Sequence record: JQ966308.1
Origin: Escherichia phage MS2
DNA: 3,398 nt
Strand: one strand, 5' to 3'
The position numbers were made by a program, and so were the translations under genes. Shown piece after piece: positions 1-3,398 of the stretch (position 1 is its first letter; each line of letters starts with the position of its first letter). Below the pieces are notes generated by a model that had not been told where the DNA came from, searched no databases, and worked only from the letters and a program-made list of their open reading frames with translations.

Positions 1-4
1 ACTC

Positions 5-1186
5 ATGCGAGCTTTTAGTGTCCTTGATCAGGAGTCCGAGACCTTCGTCCCTAGCGTCCGCGTTTATGCGGACGGGCAGGTCGAAGATAACTCGTTTTCC
101 CTAAAATACCGCTCGAACTGGACTCCCGGTCGATTTAATTCGACCGGGTCTAGAACGGAACAGTGGCACTATCCGTCCCCTTATTCTAGGGGTGCGCTCA
201 GTGTCACATCGGTAGATCAAGGTGCCTACAAGCGCTCTGGGTCATCGTGGGGTCGCCCGTACGAGGAGAAAGCCGGTTTTGGCTTCTCACTCGACGCACG
301 TTCCTGCTATAGCCTCTTCCCTGTTAGTCAGAATCTGACTTACATCGAAGTGCCGCAGAACGTTGCGAACCGGGCGTCGACCGAAGTCCTGCAGAAGGTC
401 ACTCAAGGAAATTTCAACCTTGGTGTGGCCCTAGCAGAGGCCAGGTCGACAGCCTCACAACTCGCGACGCAAACCATTGCGCTCGTGAAGGCGTACACTG
501 CCGCTCGTCGCGGCAATTGGCGCCAGACGCTCCGCTATCTTGCCCTAAACGAAGATCGGAAGTTCCGATCGAAACACGTGGCAGGCAGGTGGTTGGAGTT
601 GCAGTTCGGCTGGCTACCGCTCATGAGCGATATCCAGGGCGCATATGAGATGCTTACGAAGGTTCACCTTCAAGAGTTTCTTCCTATGAGGGCCGTACGG
701 CAAGTGGGCACTAACATTAAGTTAGATGGCCGTTTGTCGTATCCAGCTGCAAACTACCAGACTACGTGCAACATATCACGACGAATCGTGATATGGTTTT
801 ACATAAACGATGCACGTTTGGCCTGGTTGTCGTCTCTAGGTATCTTGAACCCACTAGGTATAGTGTGGGAAAAGGTGCCTTTCTCATTCGTTGTCGACTG
901 GCTCCTTCCTGTTGGGAACATGCTCGAGGGCCTCACAGCCCCCGTAGGATGCTCCTACATGTCTGGAACAGTTACTGACGTAATAACGGGTGAGTCCATC
1001 ATAAGCGTCGACGCTCCCTATGGGTGGACGGTGGATAGACAGGGCACTGCTAAGGCCCAAGTCTCAGCCATGCATCGAGGGGTGCAATCCGTATGGCCAA
1101 CAACTGGCGTATACGTGAAGTCACCTTTCTCGATGGTCCATACCTTAGACGCGTTGGCATTAATCAGGCAACGGCTCTTAAGATAG
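5..1186 (+). CDS. mat: Maturation (A / assembly) protein of an MS2-like ssRNA phage, 393 aa; pilus-binding attachment protein present at one copy per virion
   Basis: Full-length ORF from ATG at 5-7 to TAG at 1184-1186. The translation (MRAFS...LDARSCYSLFPVSQNLTYIEVPQNVANRAS...IRQRLLR) matches my recollection of the MS2 A protein over nearly its whole length and is the same size (393 aa). It is the first gene, as in all leviviruses. Confidence 0.93.
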   Translation: MRAFSVLDQESETFVPSVRVYADGQVEDNSFSLKYRSNWTPGRFNSTGSRTEQWHYPSPYSRGALSVTSVDQGAYKRSGSSWGRPYEEKAGFGFSLDARSCYSLFPVSQNLTYIEVPQNVANRASTEVLQKVTQGNFNLGVALAEARSTASQLATQTIALVKAYTAARRGNWRQTLRYLALNEDRKFRSKHVAGRWLELQFGWLPLMSDIQGAYEMLTKVHLQEFLPMRAVRQVGTNIKLDGRLSYPAANYQTTCNISRRIVIWFYINDARLAWLSSLGILNPLGIVWEKVPFSFVVDWLLPVGNMLEGLTAPVGCSYMSGTVTDVITGESIISVDAPYGWTVDRQGTAKAQVSAMHRGVQSVWPTTGVYVKSPFSMVHTLDALALIRQRLLR

Positions 1187-1197
1187 AGCCCTCAACC

Positions 1198-1217
1198 GGA
1201 GTTCGAAGCATGGCTTC
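1198..1217 (+). promoter_or_regulatory. Coat gene ribosome-binding region: Shine-Dalgarno GGAG plus a small initiator hairpin presenting the AUG in its loop
   Basis: GGAG at 1198-1201 lies 8 nt upstream of ATG 1210. GAAGC (1205-1209) and GCTTC (1213-1217) are perfectly complementary and flank the ATG, as in the known MS2 coat initiation hairpin. Confidence 0.7.
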
Positions 1218-1602
1218 TAACTTTACTCAGTTCGTTCTCGTCGACAATGGCGGAACTGGCGACGTGACTGTCGCTCCAAGCAACTTCGCTAACGGGGTCG
1301 CTGAATGGATTAGCTCTAACTCACGTTCTCAGGCTTACAAAGTAACCTGTAGCGTTCGTCAGAGCTCTGCGCAGAACCGCAAGTACACCATTAAGGTTGA
1401 GGTACCAAAAGTGGCTACCCAAACCGTCGGTGGTGTACAGCTTCCTGTAGCCGCATGGCGTTCGTACTTGAATATGGAATTAACTATTCCTATTTTCGCA
1501 ACGAACGACGATTGCGCGCTTATTGTTAAGGCGATGCAAGGTCTCCTAAAAGATGGAAACCCGATCCCCTCAGCAATCGCAGCAAACTCCGGAATCTACT
1601 AA
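1210..1602 (+). CDS. cp: Major coat (capsid) protein, 130 aa including the initiator Met; also the translational repressor of the replicase gene
   Basis: ATG at 1210-1212 lies inside the longer tabulated ORF 1093..1602. The translation MASNFTQFVLVDNGGTGDVTVAPSNFANGVAEWISSNSRSQAYKVTCSVRQSS... is the MS2 coat sequence apart from about three substitutions (Q at codon 1438-1440, D at 1507-1509, A at 1516-1518). GGAG at 1198-1201 is a plausible Shine-Dalgarno. The ORF ends with tandem stops TAA TAG (1600-1605). Confidence 0.96.
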   Translation: MASNFTQFVLVDNGGTGDVTVAPSNFANGVAEWISSNSRSQAYKVTCSVRQSSAQNRKYTIKVEVPKVATQTVGGVQLPVAAWRSYLNMELTIPIFATNDDCALIVKAMQGLLKDGNPIPSAIAANSGIY

Positions 1603-1780
1603 TAGATTCCGTCCATTCCAACATGAGGATTACCCATGTCGAAGACAACAAAGAAGTTCAACTCTTTATGTATTGATCTTCCTCGCGATCTTTCTCTCGA
1701 AATTTACCAATCAATTGCTTCTGTCGCTACTGGAAGCGGTGATCCGCACAGTAGAGACTTTACAGCAATTGCTTACCTAA
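1553..1780 (+). CDS. lys: Lysis protein L, 75 aa single-gene lysis protein (Sgl) with a basic N-terminal region and a hydrophobic C-terminal membrane domain
   Basis: ORF from ATG 1553 to TAA 1778-1780 in the +1 frame relative to coat and replicase. It overlaps the coat 3' end by 50 nt and the replicase 5' end by 145 nt. The translation METRSPQQSQQTPESTNRFRPFQHEDYPCRRQQRSSTLYVLIFLAIFLSKFTNQLLLSLLEAVIRTVETLQQLLT is nearly identical to my recollection of MS2 L, with the same length and position. Confidence 0.92.
   Translation: METRSPQQSQQTPESTNRFRPFQHEDYPCRRQQRSSTLYVLIFLAIFLSKFTNQLLLSLLEAVIRTVETLQQLLT
1600..1605 (+). terminator. Tandem in-frame translational stop codons (UAA UAG) ending the coat gene
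   Basis: TAA at 1600-1602 is followed immediately by TAG at 1603-1605 in the coat frame, the same arrangement as in MS2. Confidence 0.85.
1621..1639 (+). promoter_or_regulatory. Translational operator (TR) hairpin: coat-protein binding site that represses replicase translation and nucleates packaging
   Basis: ACATGAGGATTACCCATGT folds as stem 1621-1625/1635-1639 plus 1627-1628/1633-1634, with a bulged A at 1626 and a 4-nt loop ATTA at 1629-1632. The replicase ATG (1636-1638) is in the 3' arm and the GAGGA Shine-Dalgarno (1625-1629) in the 5' arm. The sequence is identical to the MS2 operator as I recall it. Confidence 0.93.
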
Positions 1781-3273
1781 GAGATGAGTTGCTTACTAAG
1801 CATCCATCATTGGGCAATGGTAATGACGAGGCGACCCGCCGGGCTCTAGCTATTGCTAAGCTCCGGGAGGCGAATGAGCGATGTGGCCAGATTAATAGAG
1901 AAGGTTTCTTACATGACAAATCCTTGTCATGGGATCCGGATGTTTTACAAACCAGCATCCGTAGCCTTATTGGCAACCTCCTCTCTGGCTATCGTTCGTC
2001 GTTGTTTGGGCAATGCACGTTCTCCAACGGTGCCTCGATGGGGCACAAGTTGCAGGATGCAGCGCCTTACAAGAAGTTCGCTGAACAAGCAACCGTTACC
2101 CCCCGCGCTCTGAGAGCGGCTCTACTGGTCCGAGACCAGTGTGCGCCGTGGATCAGACACGCGGTCCACTACAGCGAGTCATATGAATTTAGGCTCGTCG
2201 TAGGGAACGGAGTGTTCACAGTTCCGAAGAATAATAAAATAGATCGGGCTGCCTGTAAGGAGCCAGATGCGAACATGTACCTTCAGAAAGGGGTTGGTGG
2301 CTTCATACGCCGCCGCCTCCGTTCTATCGGTATCGACCTGAATGATCAAACGATCAATCAACGTCTTGCAAAACTCGGCAGTATCGATGGTTCTTTAGCG
2401 ACGATAGATTTATCGTCTGCTTCTGACTCCATATCGGACCGCCTTGTTTGGGAGTTTCTCCCACCGCAAATGTATGCGTACCTGTCTAAAATTCGTTCGC
2501 CACGAGGAATCGTTGACGGACGTATGATCGACTGGCACCTATTTTCCACTATGGGTAATGGATTTACCTTTGAACTAGAGTCCATGATCTTTTGGGCAAT
2601 AGTTAAGGCAACCATGACTCATTTTGGTAACCTTGGAACAATTGGCATCTATGGGGACGATATCATATGTCCCACAGAGATTGCACCTCGTGTGCTAGAG
2701 GCTCTCAGCTTCTACGGTTTTAAACCGAATCAGTCGAAGACGTTCATCACGGGTCGCTTTCGCGAGTCCTGTGGTGCACATTACTTCGGCGGTGCTGATT
2801 GCAAACCGATTTATATCAAGAAACCCGTTAACAACCTCTTCGCCGTCTGTCTGTTACTTAACAGACTGCGCGGCTGGGGTGTTGTGAACGGTGTGTCAGA
2901 TCCTCGCCTCTTCGAGACTTGGAAATGGCTATCCGAACGTGTTCCCTCGATACTTTTCGGTGGGTCAAACCTTGATGCAGACTATTACGTGGTCAGCCGC
3001 CAGGAAGCCAGGAAGCGTTGCGAGGATCATCCAGTATATGGACGTACCCTTGCTCATTTCCACAGCTCTCCTCATCGGTTGTACCGCGTACCCGCCTCTA
3101 AACGCGAATTTTCTTCGCGCGAAGAGTCCGGTCGCCTCATCACTTGGTACCATAATGGCGGTCAAATTATTGACACCACTACGACCCCAAGGGTTCGCCT
3201 TGTGCGAACATCGGAATGGCTAGCGGTAGTGCCATCCTTCCCTCAGGAAGATGACACACGCGAGCTCTCCTAG
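1636..3273 (+). CDS. rep: RNA-dependent RNA polymerase (replicase beta subunit), 545 aa
   Basis: ORF from ATG 1636 to TAG 3271-3273. The N-terminus MSKTTKKFNSLCIDLPRDLSLEIYQSIASVATGSGDPH... matches the MS2 replicase. RdRp motifs are present: motif A TIDLSSASDSISD (2401-2439), motif B MGNGFTFELES (2551-2583) and motif C YGDD (2650-2661). It has the same length as the MS2 replicase, but the C-terminal roughly 120 aa are noticeably diverged. Confidence 0.96.
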   Translation: MSKTTKKFNSLCIDLPRDLSLEIYQSIASVATGSGDPHSRDFTAIAYLRDELLTKHPSLGNGNDEATRRALAIAKLREANERCGQINREGFLHDKSLSWDPDVLQTSIRSLIGNLLSGYRSSLFGQCTFSNGASMGHKLQDAAPYKKFAEQATVTPRALRAALLVRDQCAPWIRHAVHYSESYEFRLVVGNGVFTVPKNNKIDRAACKEPDANMYLQKGVGGFIRRRLRSIGIDLNDQTINQRLAKLGSIDGSLATIDLSSASDSISDRLVWEFLPPQMYAYLSKIRSPRGIVDGRMIDWHLFSTMGNGFTFELESMIFWAIVKATMTHFGNLGTIGIYGDDIICPTEIAPRVLEALSFYGFKPNQSKTFITGRFRESCGAHYFGGADCKPIYIKKPVNNLFAVCLLLNRLRGWGVVNGVSDPRLFETWKWLSERVPSILFGGSNLDADYYVVSRQEARKRCEDHPVYGRTLAHFHSSPHRLYRVPASKREFSSREESGRLITWYHNGGQIIDTTTTPRVRLVRTSEWLAVVPSFPQEDDTRELS

Positions 3274-3398
3274 TCAGCACGGCTAGGGACCCCCGTAATC
3301 GGGGTGGGTGCCGCGAAAGCGGCTATTCATCGTAACAACGATGGATAGGAGTAACCTCCTAATTCGGTGACTAACTTTGCTTGGCTAGTCACCACCCA
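3274..3398 (+). other. 3' untranslated region of the phage genome, 125 nt, with a series of short hairpins and the levivirus 3' terminus ...ACCACCCA
   Basis: Perfect small stem-loops are visible: 3291-3295/3300-3304 (CCCCG/CGGGG, loop TAAT), 3310-3314/3319-3323 (GCCGC/GCGGC, GAAA tetraloop), 3328-3332/3339-3343 (CATCG/CGATG), and 3347-3351/3356-3360 (AGGAG/CTCCT, loop TAAC). The window ends in CCCA. Confidence 0.85.
3366..3398 (+). promoter_or_regulatory. 3'-terminal hairpin plus single-stranded ACCCA tail; likely the replicase initiation site for minus-strand synthesis
   Basis: GGTGACTA (3366-3373) pairs perfectly with TAGTCACC (3386-3393), an 8-bp stem with a 12-nt loop, followed by unpaired ACCCA (3394-3398). 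Levivirus genomes end in CCCA with a terminal hairpin immediately upstream. Confidence 0.75.

What the first reader, a model, noticed from the sequence alone, without database searches (positions are those of the whole stretch)
1..3398. Window is a near-complete MS2-like ssRNA phage genome, 3'-complete but lacking the 5' UTR
The four-gene mat-cp-lys-rep organisation, the TR operator hairpin and the CCCA 3' terminus are all present, so this is a whole levivirus genome written as DNA. Only 4 nt precede the maturation start. MS2 carries a 5' UTR of roughly 130 nt with a 5'-terminal hairpin needed for replication and a long-range structure that controls maturation-gene translation. As given, the molecule is either 5'-truncated (assembly or cloning artefact) or an engineered construct. 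Nothing here needs a new biological system to explain it.
Basis: partly seen in the sequence, partly recalled or inferred. Interest (0 to 1): 0.55.

Follow-up and report, generated by a model that had tools for sequence, protein, structure and literature searches.

The report
5'-truncated record of mosaic MS2-like phage
The window is the published, 5'-incomplete cDNA sequence of the environmental RNA coliphage isolate DL54: an MS2-like genome whose last third comes from a different, undescribed relative, so the missing 5' UTR is an ordinary sequencing gap.

Summary
The window carries mat (5-1186), cp (1210-1602), lys (1553-1780) and rep (1636-3273), the MS2 operator hairpin (1621-1639) and an ACCACCCA 3' end. 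Only 4 nt precede the mat start.

It is almost certainly GenBank JQ966308, isolate DL54. Its four proteins match AFN39797-AFN39800 exactly. Its length is the 3398 nt that Friedman et al. 2012 list as "nearly full-length". It is 96.8% identical to DL52, which has 127 more nt at the 5' end. The truncation is therefore a documented sequencing gap, not biology.

- **1-1784** is identical to DL52 and 2 nt from DL16.
- **1785-2255** is a unique MS2-like sequence.
- **About 2260 to 3398** (replicase C-terminal 338 aa plus a short 125-nt 3' UTR) belongs to a different lineage. Unrecombined genomes of that lineage now exist in four public assemblies.

The crossover lies in a 44-nt stretch conserved across genogroups. 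Recombination was already published. The exact breakpoint and the donor lineage come from this analysis and are absent from Friedman et al. 2012. A clonal 5' half shared by three isolates from one study series leaves natural recombination and laboratory chimera unresolved. Interest is low.

The parts
1..4 (+). Last 4 nt (ACTC) of the 5' UTR. The remaining ~127 nt are missing from the record: the 5' GGG hairpin, the upstream complementary sequence and the Shine-Dalgarno AGGAGGU.
   Evidence: window position 1 = DL52 nt 128 = MS2-numbering nt 126. DL52, DL16 and MS2 all carry the upstream sequence.
5..1186 (+). Maturation (A) protein gene, 393 aa. The start codon is ATG, where MS2 has GTG.
   Evidence: ORF. 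(PF03863, E 3.6e-202). (exact match to ABO33460.1, AFN39793.1 and AFN39797.1). (ATG versus GTG).
1210..1602 (+). Coat protein gene, 130 aa.
   Evidence: ATG at 1210 inside the listed 1093..1602 ORF. (PF01819, E 1e-67). (exact match to AFN39798.1 and others).
1553..1780 (+). Lysis protein gene, 75 aa, overlapping the cp 3' end and the rep 5' end in another frame.
   Evidence: (PF11125, E 1.3e-38). (exact match to AFN39799.1).
1604..1639 (+). Coat-protein operator (translational repression and packaging hairpin). The stem-loop is at 1621-1639 and includes the rep start codon at 1636.
   Evidence: RF02359, 59.6 bits, E 8.6e-13, full-length model match.
1636..3273 (+). Replicase (RdRp beta subunit) gene, 545 aa, chimeric. 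The N-terminal 207 aa (nt 1636-2255) are MS2-like: 98% identical to DL16, 64% to the donor type. The C-terminal 338 aa (nt 2256-3270) are donor-like: 96% identical to the SRR7550489 contig, 68% to MS2.
   Evidence: (exact match to AFN39800.1, seen on one 3398-nt contig only).
1..1784 (+). Mosaic segment A: the same clone as in DL52 (0 differences) and DL16 (2 differences, at 1494 and 1684).
   Evidence: Every other pair of the seven other MS2-like genomes compared differs by 95-159 nt over this stretch.
1785..2255 (+). Mosaic segment B: MS2-like but unique. It has 24 differences from DL52 and DL16, and its best match in the phage collection is 96.2%.
   Evidence: Of the 24 differing codons, 21 are synonymous.
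2221..2264 (+). 44-nt stretch GTTCCGAAGAATAATAAAATAGATCGGGCTGCCTGTAAGGAGCC, encoding VPKNNKIDRAACKEP. It is nearly invariant in MS2-like phages, GA-like phages and the donor lineage. The crossover from MS2-like to donor-like falls between 2256 and 2269.
   Evidence: best split 2256|2269, Fisher p 2e-97; DL52 splits at 2247|2256, p 1e-118. (alignment with GA, L080, L050, SRR7550489 contig and DL16).
2269..3398 (+). Mosaic segment C/D: 'JS' donor-lineage sequence covering the replicase C-terminal part and the whole 3' UTR. The coding part (to 3270) is 93% identical to the unrecombined SRR7550489 contig. It is about 74% identical to MS2-like genomes up to 3000 and about 42-51% beyond.
2956..3135 (+). 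Fast-diverging part of the replicase gene (aa ~441-500). Window versus DL52 is 75-87% identical. L053 versus the SRR7550489 contig is 62-72%.
   Evidence: 14 of 35 differing codons are non-synonymous in 2956-3270.
3274..3398 (+). 3' UTR, 125 nt (MS2 has 171). It is a row of short tetraloop hairpins of the donor type. Over the 93 UTR nt they share (3274-3366) it differs from the SRR7550489 contig at 2 nt.
   Evidence: alignment and MFE folds.
3366..3398 (+). 3'-terminal hairpin (3366-3393) followed by ACCCA. Relative to MS2 it carries one compensatory A-U to G-C pair change.

Best explanation
The window is the DNA-letter record of the plus-strand RNA genome of F-specific coliphage isolate DL54 (CICEET 24, Narragansett Bay), GenBank JQ966308, of the 'JS' subgroup of Levivirus genogroup I (Emesvirus).

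**The truncation.** The sequence was obtained by RT-PCR primer walking and was never extended to the 5' end. The first ~127 nt are therefore missing from the record, not from the virus. Everything else needed for an MS2-type life cycle is present:
- mat, cp, lys and rep in the MS2 arrangement;
- the coat-protein operator hairpin over the rep start;
- a 3' domain ending in a hairpin plus ACCCA.

**The mosaic.** The genome has three parts.
- Segment A (1-1784: mat, cp, lys and all inter-cistronic control elements) is the same clone as in DL52 and DL16.
- Segment B (1785-2255) is an independent MS2-like sequence.
- From a crossover at 2256-2269 onward, the replicase C-terminal 338 aa and the 3' UTR come from a distinct Emesvirus-like lineage. 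Unrecombined genomes of that lineage are now visible in public assemblies.

**Inferred mechanism.** The most likely origin of the B|C junction is homologous copy-choice template switching by the replicase during mixed infection of an F+ E. coli. The switch would occur within the 44-nt stretch that is almost identical in both parents. The identification, the truncation, the segment boundaries and the donor lineage are shown by tool results. The copy-choice mechanism, and whether it happened in nature, are inferred.
For: **Identity**
- Exact protein matches to AFN39797-AFN39800. The replicase is seen on one 3398-nt NCBI contig only.
- The length and the 96.7-96.8% identity to DL52 agree with the paper.

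**Truncation**
- The window starts at DL52 nt 128.
- Table 2 of PMC3499819 footnotes DL54 as 'nearly full-length'.
- The method was primer walking with three clones.

**Gene set and operator**
-.

**Mosaic**
- There are 0 differences from DL52 in 1-1784, then 110 in 1785-3365. The chance of that distribution is 2.7e-36.
- 81 of the 108 differences that lie in rep are at third codon positions.
- Among 366 informative sites, the window is MS2-like at nearly all sites (6 exceptions) up to 2247 and donor-like at nearly all after 2269.

**Donor lineage**
- The Logan contig from SRR7550489 (L005) is 86-99% identical to the window per 100-nt bin over 2201-3300, but only about 40-86% per bin (mostly 50-65%) before that.
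- Three further contigs carry the same unrecombined replicase type.
- The donor has the same gene order. Its coat protein is 75% identical and its maturation protein 56% identical at the amino-acid level.

**No frameshift**
- The replicase C-terminus aligns in frame with MS2 and fr.

**3' UTR**
- It is of the donor type and ends like all group I and II phages.
Against: - JQ966308 itself could not be fetched for a base-by-base comparison. Identity rests on proteins, length and published figures.
- Whether the last bases of the 3' end are primer-derived cannot be told. The Friedman 2009 methods paper is not held.
- For a natural origin of the mosaic, the recombinant-type replicase occurs only in the two GenBank records from the same authors. 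All four independent assemblies carry the unrecombined type.
- The clonal segment A is shared by three isolates sequenced by the same authors (DL16 in their earlier study). This is hard to reconcile with 6-10% divergence in the 3' halves.
- In segment C/D the window and DL52 are not each other's closest relatives.
Confidence: 0.88

Rival explanations
1. The record is DL54, but part or all of its mosaic is a laboratory product. The stock would have held a donor-type ('JS') phage plus MS2-like phage, either a DL16/DL52-like contaminant or a co-isolated strain.

MS2-based walking primers cannot prime on a donor-type 5' half that is only ~60% identical, so they would amplify the MS2-like templates instead. 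Amplicons would then be joined by PCR jumping, or by assembly across the 44-nt stretch identical in all templates. A variant of this reading is true recombination, but during mixed laboratory enrichment. This rival concerns the origin of the junctions only. It is compatible with the identification and the 5' truncation.
For: - Segment A has 0 differences from DL52 over 1784 nt and 2 from DL16. Every other pair of the seven other MS2-like genomes compared differs by 95-159 nt there.
- DL16, DL52 and DL54 were sequenced by the same authors with the same primer-walking approach, DL16 in their earlier study.
- DL52 equals DL16 right up to the conserved stretch: 2 differences through 2255.
- No independent assembly among 5.8 billion protein clusters carries the MS2-like|JS junction. 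Four carry the unrecombined donor type.
- The JS segments of DL52 and DL54 do not form a clade relative to the unrecombined contig. Identities are 91.8% against 93.0% and 94.9%, and quartet counts are 6:12:11 and 5:12:19. The junction would therefore have to have arisen at least twice.
Against: - Segment B is a third, unique MS2-like sequence, with a best match of 96.2% and mostly synonymous differences. A simple two-template chimera does not explain the window.
- Divergence between the window and DL52 in B (5.1%) is close to that in C (5.9%), as expected if B and C travelled together.
- The strains were plaque-purified, and three clones were sequenced per amplicon.
- An IMG/VR contig (L050) shows a GA-like to JS-like switch at the same stretch. 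This would fit a natural hot spot, although it could itself be an assembly chimera.
Confidence: 0.4
2. The molecule is genuinely 5'-deleted: a defective or subgenomic phage RNA lacking the 5' UTR.
For: Only the bare fact that the window starts 4 nt before the mat ATG.
Against: - The source paper labels the record 'nearly full-length', not a deletion variant.
- The isolate was propagated as plaques. From established MS2 biology this requires the 5' end, whose complement is the minus-strand 3' end that templates plus-strand synthesis, and the mat ribosome-binding site.
- The sister isolate DL52 has a normal 131-nt 5' UTR before its mat start.
Confidence: 0.02
3. The window is an engineered cDNA construct, for example an expression or armoured-RNA cassette starting at the mat gene.
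For: The start just upstream of the mat ATG resembles a cloning boundary.
Against: - There is no vector, promoter or tag sequence at either end.
- The sequence is about 12% diverged from laboratory MS2 over the part that aligns (1-3001).
- It equals an environmental isolate's proteins exactly.
- It ends precisely at the natural 3' terminus.
Confidence: 0.01

Closest known systems
Escherichia phage MS2 isolate DL54, GenBank JQ966308 (Friedman, Snellgrove and Genthner 2012, Viruses 4:1548; PMC3499819)
   Same: Length is 3398 nt. The ORF layout matches. All four proteins are identical (AFN39797-AFN39800). Identity to DL52 is 96.7-96.8%. The record is footnoted as nearly full-length.
   Different: Nothing detectable. 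The record itself was not available for a base-by-base check.
MS2 isolate DL52, JQ966307 (3525 nt, complete)
   Same: Same organisation and the same kind of mosaic. It is identical over window 1-1784. Its 3' UTR has the same length, with 2 substitutions.
   Different: - It has the 127 nt of 5' UTR that the window lacks.
- It equals DL16 up to 2255, whereas the window differs at 24 sites in 1785-2255.
- There are 86 further differences from 2256 onward. Identity falls to 77% in 3001-3100.
MS2 (NC_001417) and MS2-like isolate DL16 (EF108464), Emesvirus zinderi
   Same: - Gene order, ORF lengths (393, 130, 75 and 545 aa), the operator hairpin and the ACCACCCA terminus all match.
- DL16 differs from the window at only 2 of 1784 nt in segment A.
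   Different: - MS2 mat starts with GTG; the window's starts with ATG.
- From 2269 on, identity is about 74% up to 3000 and about 50% beyond.
- Whole-replicase identity is 78-79% at the amino-acid level.
- The 3' UTR is 171 nt in MS2 against 125 nt here, with different hairpins.
Unrecombined 'JS-donor' lineage: Logan contig SRR7550489_5525 (L005, 3295 nt), ENA OGVH01004572 (L053), and two more contigs of 3548 and 3462 nt
   Same: - Replicase nt 2270-3270 is 93% identical to the window (87% for L053).
- The 3' UTR is of the same type.
- The mat-cp-lys-rep layout is the same.
   Different: - The mat, cp and replicase N-terminal parts are only about 50-65% identical at the nucleotide level. Coat is 75% and maturation protein 56% identical at the amino-acid level.
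- The operator loop is AAAA instead of AUUA and does not reach the Rfam threshold.
- No deposited phage genome matches its 5' half above about 70%.
RNA-RNA recombination in Leviviridae (laboratory Q-beta recombinants; Friedman 2012 for environmental strains)
   Same: A crossover within a short stretch of near-identity is what homologous copy-choice would give. This comparison rests on general knowledge of Q-beta work, which was not re-read here.
   Different: - The published breakpoints for DL52 and DL54 are scattered: replicase nt 84-592, about 660, 787-1029 and aa 455.
- With the donor lineage available, the breakpoint is a single sharp switch at replicase nt 621-634.
- The paper does not discuss the clonal 5' segment.

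Membership tests
MS2-like levivirus (Emesvirus, genogroup I) | Four genes in the order mat-cp-lys-rep, with lys overlapping the cp end and the rep start in another frame | tested here: met
   (coordinates). (all four Pfam families, E 1e-38 to 1e-202). The ORF lengths equal those of MS2.
MS2-like levivirus (Emesvirus, genogroup I) | Coat-protein operator hairpin enclosing the replicase start codon | tested here: met
   RF02359, 59.6 bits (gathering score 40), 1604-1639.
MS2-like levivirus (Emesvirus, genogroup I) | 3' terminus ...ACCACCCA preceded by a terminal hairpin | tested here: met
   It cannot be excluded that the last few bases are primer-derived.
MS2-like levivirus (Emesvirus, genogroup I) | 5' terminus GGG..., with a ~130-nt UTR holding the 5' hairpin and the mat ribosome-binding site | tested here: not met
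   This is absent from the window, where only ACTC precedes the ATG. It is present in the sister record DL52. This is a gap in the record, so it bears on 'complete genome', not on family membership.
MS2-like levivirus (Emesvirus, genogroup I) | MS2-level nucleotide similarity along the whole genome (MS2-like strains are 91-99% similar to each other, PMC3499819) | tested here: not met
   Identity to the MS2-like genomes is 92-100% in segment A and 92-96% in B. It is only about 74% in 2256-3000 and about 42-51% in 3001-3398. Whole-replicase identity to MS2 is 78.3% at the amino-acid level. The window is an MS2-like/other-lineage mosaic, not a plain MS2 strain.
'JS' subgroup recombinants (DL52/DL54) | MS2-like mat, cp and lys, with a divergent replicase 3' part and a shortened 3' UTR | tested here: met
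   matching the description in PMC3499819.
'JS' subgroup recombinants (DL52/DL54) | Sequence identity with the deposited DL54 record | tested here: met
   Exact matches of all four proteins to AFN39797-AFN39800, on a contig of 3398 nt. The nucleotide record itself was not retrievable.
Natural recombinant RNA phage | The junction is present in single viral RNA molecules and seen independently of the original laboratory | not testable with these tools
   No independent contig carries the MS2-like|JS junction. L050 shows a GA-like|JS switch at the same stretch but may be an assembly chimera.

The most novel reading that the evidence does not exclude
The 44-nt stretch at 2221-2264 encodes VPKNNKIDRAACKEP and is nearly identical in genogroup I phages, genogroup II (GA-like) phages and the undescribed JS-donor lineage. 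It may be a natural recombination hot spot.

Through it, one 'polymerase C-terminal part plus 3' UTR' module would have been joined repeatedly to different mat-cp-lys modules. The candidate cases are:
- independently in DL52 and DL54;
- possibly in DL16;
- in the GA-like contig L050.

That would make modular exchange a regular feature of F-specific RNA coliphage evolution, a group usually regarded as almost non-recombining.
Probability: 0.35. Interest if true: 0.5.

Novelty: already known. Interest (0 to 1): 0.15.

Why it matters
As given, the finding matters little. It re-identifies a deposited, published and openly 5'-incomplete phage record, so no new system is involved.

There are two useful by-products.
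- The previously unidentified second parent of the 'JS' recombinants can now be named from public assemblies. That fixes the crossover to a 13-nt interval inside a universally conserved stretch, instead of the scattered breakpoints in the paper.
- The 5' 1784 nt are clonal among three isolates from one study series. This needs to be resolved before DL52 and DL54 are cited as the first natural recombinants among environmental Leviviridae, or used as distinct reference strains for read classification in wastewater studies such as PMC6963950.

Tried and rejected
- **Frameshift as the cause of the divergent replicase C-terminus.** The paper mentions a 2-nt insertion. Rejected: the C-terminus aligns in frame with MS2, fr and the donor type along its whole length.
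- **Fetching JQ966308 directly.** It is not in the collections. No gene with exactly the window's replicase product (P0001) is on record in the encoding-contig collection.
- **Fetching the longer donor-type contigs (P0121-P0123).** L053 was recovered through the metagenome scan instead.
- **Friedman 2009 methods (primer positions, how the termini were determined).** The paper is not held.
- **Origin of sample SRR7550489.** No paper mentions it.
- **Independent recombinant-type sequences.**
  - A junction-spanning protein query gave nothing.
  - On retry it returned only proteins of 364 aa or less, none of recombinant type, and did not even return the window's own replicase. This is a weak negative.
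  - The IMG/VR peptide scan found no close JS relative apart from L050, and an exact JS-specific 26-mer scan found only L050.
- **Lee et al. 2019 (PMC6963950).** Strains were reported only as proportions assigned to named reference strains. That does not test the junction.
- **Rfam at E up to 1.** Only the operator hairpin was found in the window.
- **Defective-RNA and engineered-construct readings.** Rejected; see the rival explanations.

Full report
**1. What is in the window**

The 3398-nt window has four ORFs in the MS2 arrangement:
- mat 5-1186 (393 aa);
- cp 1210-1602 (130 aa);
- lys 1553-1780 (75 aa, overlapping the cp end and the rep start in another frame);
- rep 1636-3273 (545 aa).

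Each hits its levivirus Pfam family: Phage_mat-A at 3.6e-202, Levi_coat at 1e-67, Phage_MS2_lysis at 1.3e-38 and RNA_replicase_B at 2.2e-199.

Rfam finds one family in the whole window, the MS2 operator hairpin, at 1604-1639 with 59.6 bits. The stem-loop ACATGAGGATTACCCATGT at 1621-1639 contains the rep ATG.

The window begins ACTC|ATG and ends with a hairpin (3366-3393) followed by ACCCA.

**2. Which sequence it is**

- Megablast against 50,697 phage records gives one full-length hit, JQ966307 (MS2 isolate DL52). It is 96.8% identical, and window position 1 aligns to DL52 nt 128.
- All other MS2-like genomes align only up to about 3000.
- Friedman et al. 2012 (PMC3499819) describe DL52 (3525 nt) and DL54 (JQ966308). 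DL54 is 3398 nt, footnoted 'nearly full-length genome', and 96.73% similar to DL52.
- An exact look-up shows the window's four proteins are NCBI AFN39797.1, AFN39798.1, AFN39799.1 and AFN39800.1. The replicase is known from a single 3398-nt contig.
- DL52's proteins are AFN39793-96, so the window's accessions follow directly.
- JQ966308 itself is not in the searchable collection. I nevertheless take the identification as almost certain.

**3. The missing 5' UTR**

DL52, DL16, MS2 and fr all carry 125-131 nt upstream of the point where the window begins. That stretch includes the GGGUGGGACCCC... terminal hairpin and the AGGAGGU ribosome-binding site of mat.

The isolates were sequenced by RT-PCR primer walking with three clones per piece, and the paper itself flags DL54 as incomplete.

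From established MS2 biology, an RNA starting at ACUCAUG could neither be replicated nor translate mat efficiently, yet the isolate forms plaques. Nothing suggests an engineered construct. There is no vector sequence, the aligned part (1-3001) is only about 88% identical to laboratory MS2, and the sequence ends exactly at the natural 3' end.

**4.

Sliding identity and site-by-site comparison give three segments.

*Segment A (1-1784)*
- It has no difference from DL52 and two from DL16 (at 1494 and 1684).
- Every other pair of the seven other MS2-like genomes compared differs by 95-159 nt over the same stretch.

*Segment B (1785-2255)*
- It is MS2-like but unique: 24 differences from DL52 and DL16, and a best database match of 96.2%.
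- Of the 24 differing codons, 21 are synonymous.

*Segment C/D (about 2260 onward)*
- Both the window and DL52 drop to about 74% identity with all MS2-like genomes, and to about 42-52% after 3000.
- They remain 94% (2256-3000) and 89% (3001-3398) identical to each other.

The 110 window-DL52 differences all lie in 1785-3365. The chance of none falling in the first 1784 nt is 2.7e-36. Of the 108 that lie in rep, 81 are at third codon positions. They therefore reflect real evolutionary divergence, not sequencing noise.

**5. The donor of segment C/D**

A protein search with replicase residues 221-545 returned three close clusters: the window itself (P0001), DL52 (P0003), and P0002, a 96%-identical protein from a Logan assembly of SRR7550489.

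The P0002 contig (L005, 3295 nt) is 86-99% identical to the window per 100-nt bin over 2201-3300. Upstream it is only about 40-86% identical per bin, mostly 50-65%. It is therefore an unrecombined representative of the lineage that supplied segment C/D.

Its cluster holds three more independent sequences:
- an ENA contig of 3548 nt;
- a Logan contig of 3462 nt;
- ENA OGVH01004572, recovered as L053.

All three have the donor-type N-terminus.

The donor has the mat-cp-lys-rep layout. Its coat protein is 75% identical and its maturation protein 56% identical to the window's at the amino-acid level. It has an MS2-L-like lysis ORF and an operator-like hairpin with an AAAA loop. No deposited phage genome matches its 5' half above about 70%.

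The window's replicase C-terminus aligns in frame with MS2, fr and the donor. The divergence is therefore replacement, not frameshift.

The 3' UTR is of the donor type. It is 125 nt with fewer hairpins than MS2's 171 nt, and differs from L005 at 2 of the 93 nt they share.

**6. The breakpoint**

Using DL16 and MS2 against the donor contigs gives 366 informative sites. The window is MS2-like at nearly all sites (6 exceptions) up to 2247 and donor-like at nearly all after 2269.
- Best split for the window: 2256|2269, Fisher p 2e-97.
- Best split for DL52: 2247|2256, p 1e-118.

This is replicase nt 612-634. It is sharper than, and different from, the scattered estimates in the paper: nt 84-592, about 660, 787-1029 and aa 455.

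The switch lies in a 44-nt stretch (2221-2264, encoding VPKNNKIDRAACKEP). That stretch is nearly identical in MS2-like phages, GA-like phages and the donor lineage, which is what homologous copy-choice would use.

**7. Natural or laboratory mosaic?**

This could not be settled.

*Points for a natural origin*
- Segment B is unique.
- Its divergence from DL52 (5.1%) is close to that of segment C (5.9%), as if B and C had travelled together.
- An IMG/VR contig (L050) is 90-97% GA-like upstream of the same stretch. Downstream it is 92-97% JS-like and only 62-70% GA-like. Its sibling L080 stays GA-like throughout.

*Points against*
- Segment A is one clone in three isolates, from New Hampshire, Rhode Island and North Carolina, all sequenced by the same authors (DL16 in their earlier study).
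- DL52 equals DL16 right up to the conserved stretch.
- The recombinant-type replicase exists only in these two GenBank records. All four independent assemblies are unrecombined.
- In segment C/D, the window and DL52 (91.8%) are less alike than either is to the unrecombined contig (93.0% and 94.9%). Quartet counts give no support for a window+DL52 clade. The junction would have to have formed at least twice.
- MS2-based walking primers would not prime on a donor-type 5' half. A mixed stock plus PCR jumping in the 44-nt stretch is therefore a realistic alternative.
- L050 could equally be an assembly chimera across that stretch.

I put about 0.4 on a laboratory contribution to at least one junction.

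**8. Comparison with known systems and verdict**

The window works like MS2 and, for two thirds of its length, is MS2-like. Its replicase is 78.3% identical to MS2's overall: 95% over the N-terminal 207 aa and 68% over the C-terminal 338 aa.

It meets every testable defining feature of the group except two. The 5' end is missing from the record, and uniform MS2-level similarity fails because of the mosaic.

It is an already known sequence with an already published recombination claim. The finding as written is correct and ordinary. What this analysis adds, beyond what Friedman et al. 2012 report, is the donor lineage, the exact crossover and the caveat about the clonal 5' segment.

Noticed in passing
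L005 (Logan SRR7550489_5525) 1-3295; also L053 (OGVH01004572): An apparently undescribed Emesvirus-like phage lineage, the unrecombined 'JS donor'. Its coat is 75% and its maturation protein 56% identical to the window's at the amino-acid level. It has an MS2-L-like 73-aa ORF at 1491-1712. Its operator-like hairpin ACATGAGGAAAACCCATGT (1554-1572) has an AAAA loop and does not reach the Rfam threshold. No deposited phage genome matches its 5' half above about 70%.
   Followed up: partly
L050 (IMGVR_UViG_3300019216_000186) 1235-1431, compared with L079 (GA) and L080: A GA-like (genogroup II) contig switches to JS-like sequence exactly at the 44-nt conserved stretch. Downstream it is 92-97% identical to the window and 62-70% to GA. 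The sibling contig L080, from another sample, stays GA-like. This is either a second natural recombinant background or an assembly chimera.
   Followed up: partly
L001 (DL52) versus L003 (DL16), window coordinates 1-2255 plus the 5' UTR: DL52 and DL16 differ by only 2 substitutions (1494 and 1684) and a 2-nt T-run length difference in the 5' UTR, up to the crossover stretch. They then diverge to about 75% identity. One of the two is a recombinant of the other's 5' two thirds at the same site as the window's B|C junction. The substitution at 1684 gives DL16 a unique R17C in the replicase.
   Followed up: partly
window 2956-3135 (replicase aa ~441-500): A fast-diverging patch within the donor-type segment. 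Window versus DL52 is 75-87% identical, and L053 versus the SRR7550489 contig is 62-72%. It has a high share of non-synonymous changes (14 of 35 differing codons in 2956-3270). Quartet support also changes along segment C/D, hinting at further mosaicism inside the JS lineage.
   Followed up: partly
window 5-7: The maturation gene starts with ATG in the window, DL52 and DL16, whereas MS2 uses GTG at the homologous position.
   Followed up: no
window 1303-1309 and 1612-1618: GAATGGA in the coat gene is the exact complement of TCCATTC just upstream of the operator hairpin. The positions correspond to the long-range (Min Jou) pairing that, from my recollection of the MS2 literature, blocks replicase translation until the coat gene is read. 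Both arms lie in segment A, so the recombination left this control unit intact (read by eye).
   Followed up: no
proteins P0008, P0128, P0131, P0144: MS2 replicase and maturation-protein fragments are deposited at NCBI as 'hypothetical protein, partial' of E. coli, Vibrio parahaemolyticus, Salmonella enterica and Klebsiella pneumoniae. P0008 is 99.5% identical to the MS2 replicase. These are probably MS2 contamination (for example control RNA) in bacterial assemblies.
   Followed up: no
PMC3499819 compared: The published replicase similarity of the JS strains to MS2-like strains (84-85%) and the published breakpoints do not match what is found here. Here amino-acid identity is 78-79%, with a single sharp switch at replicase nt 612-634. 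The paper does not mention that the 5' 1784 nt are identical among DL52, DL54 and (bar 2 nt) DL16.
   Followed up: yes
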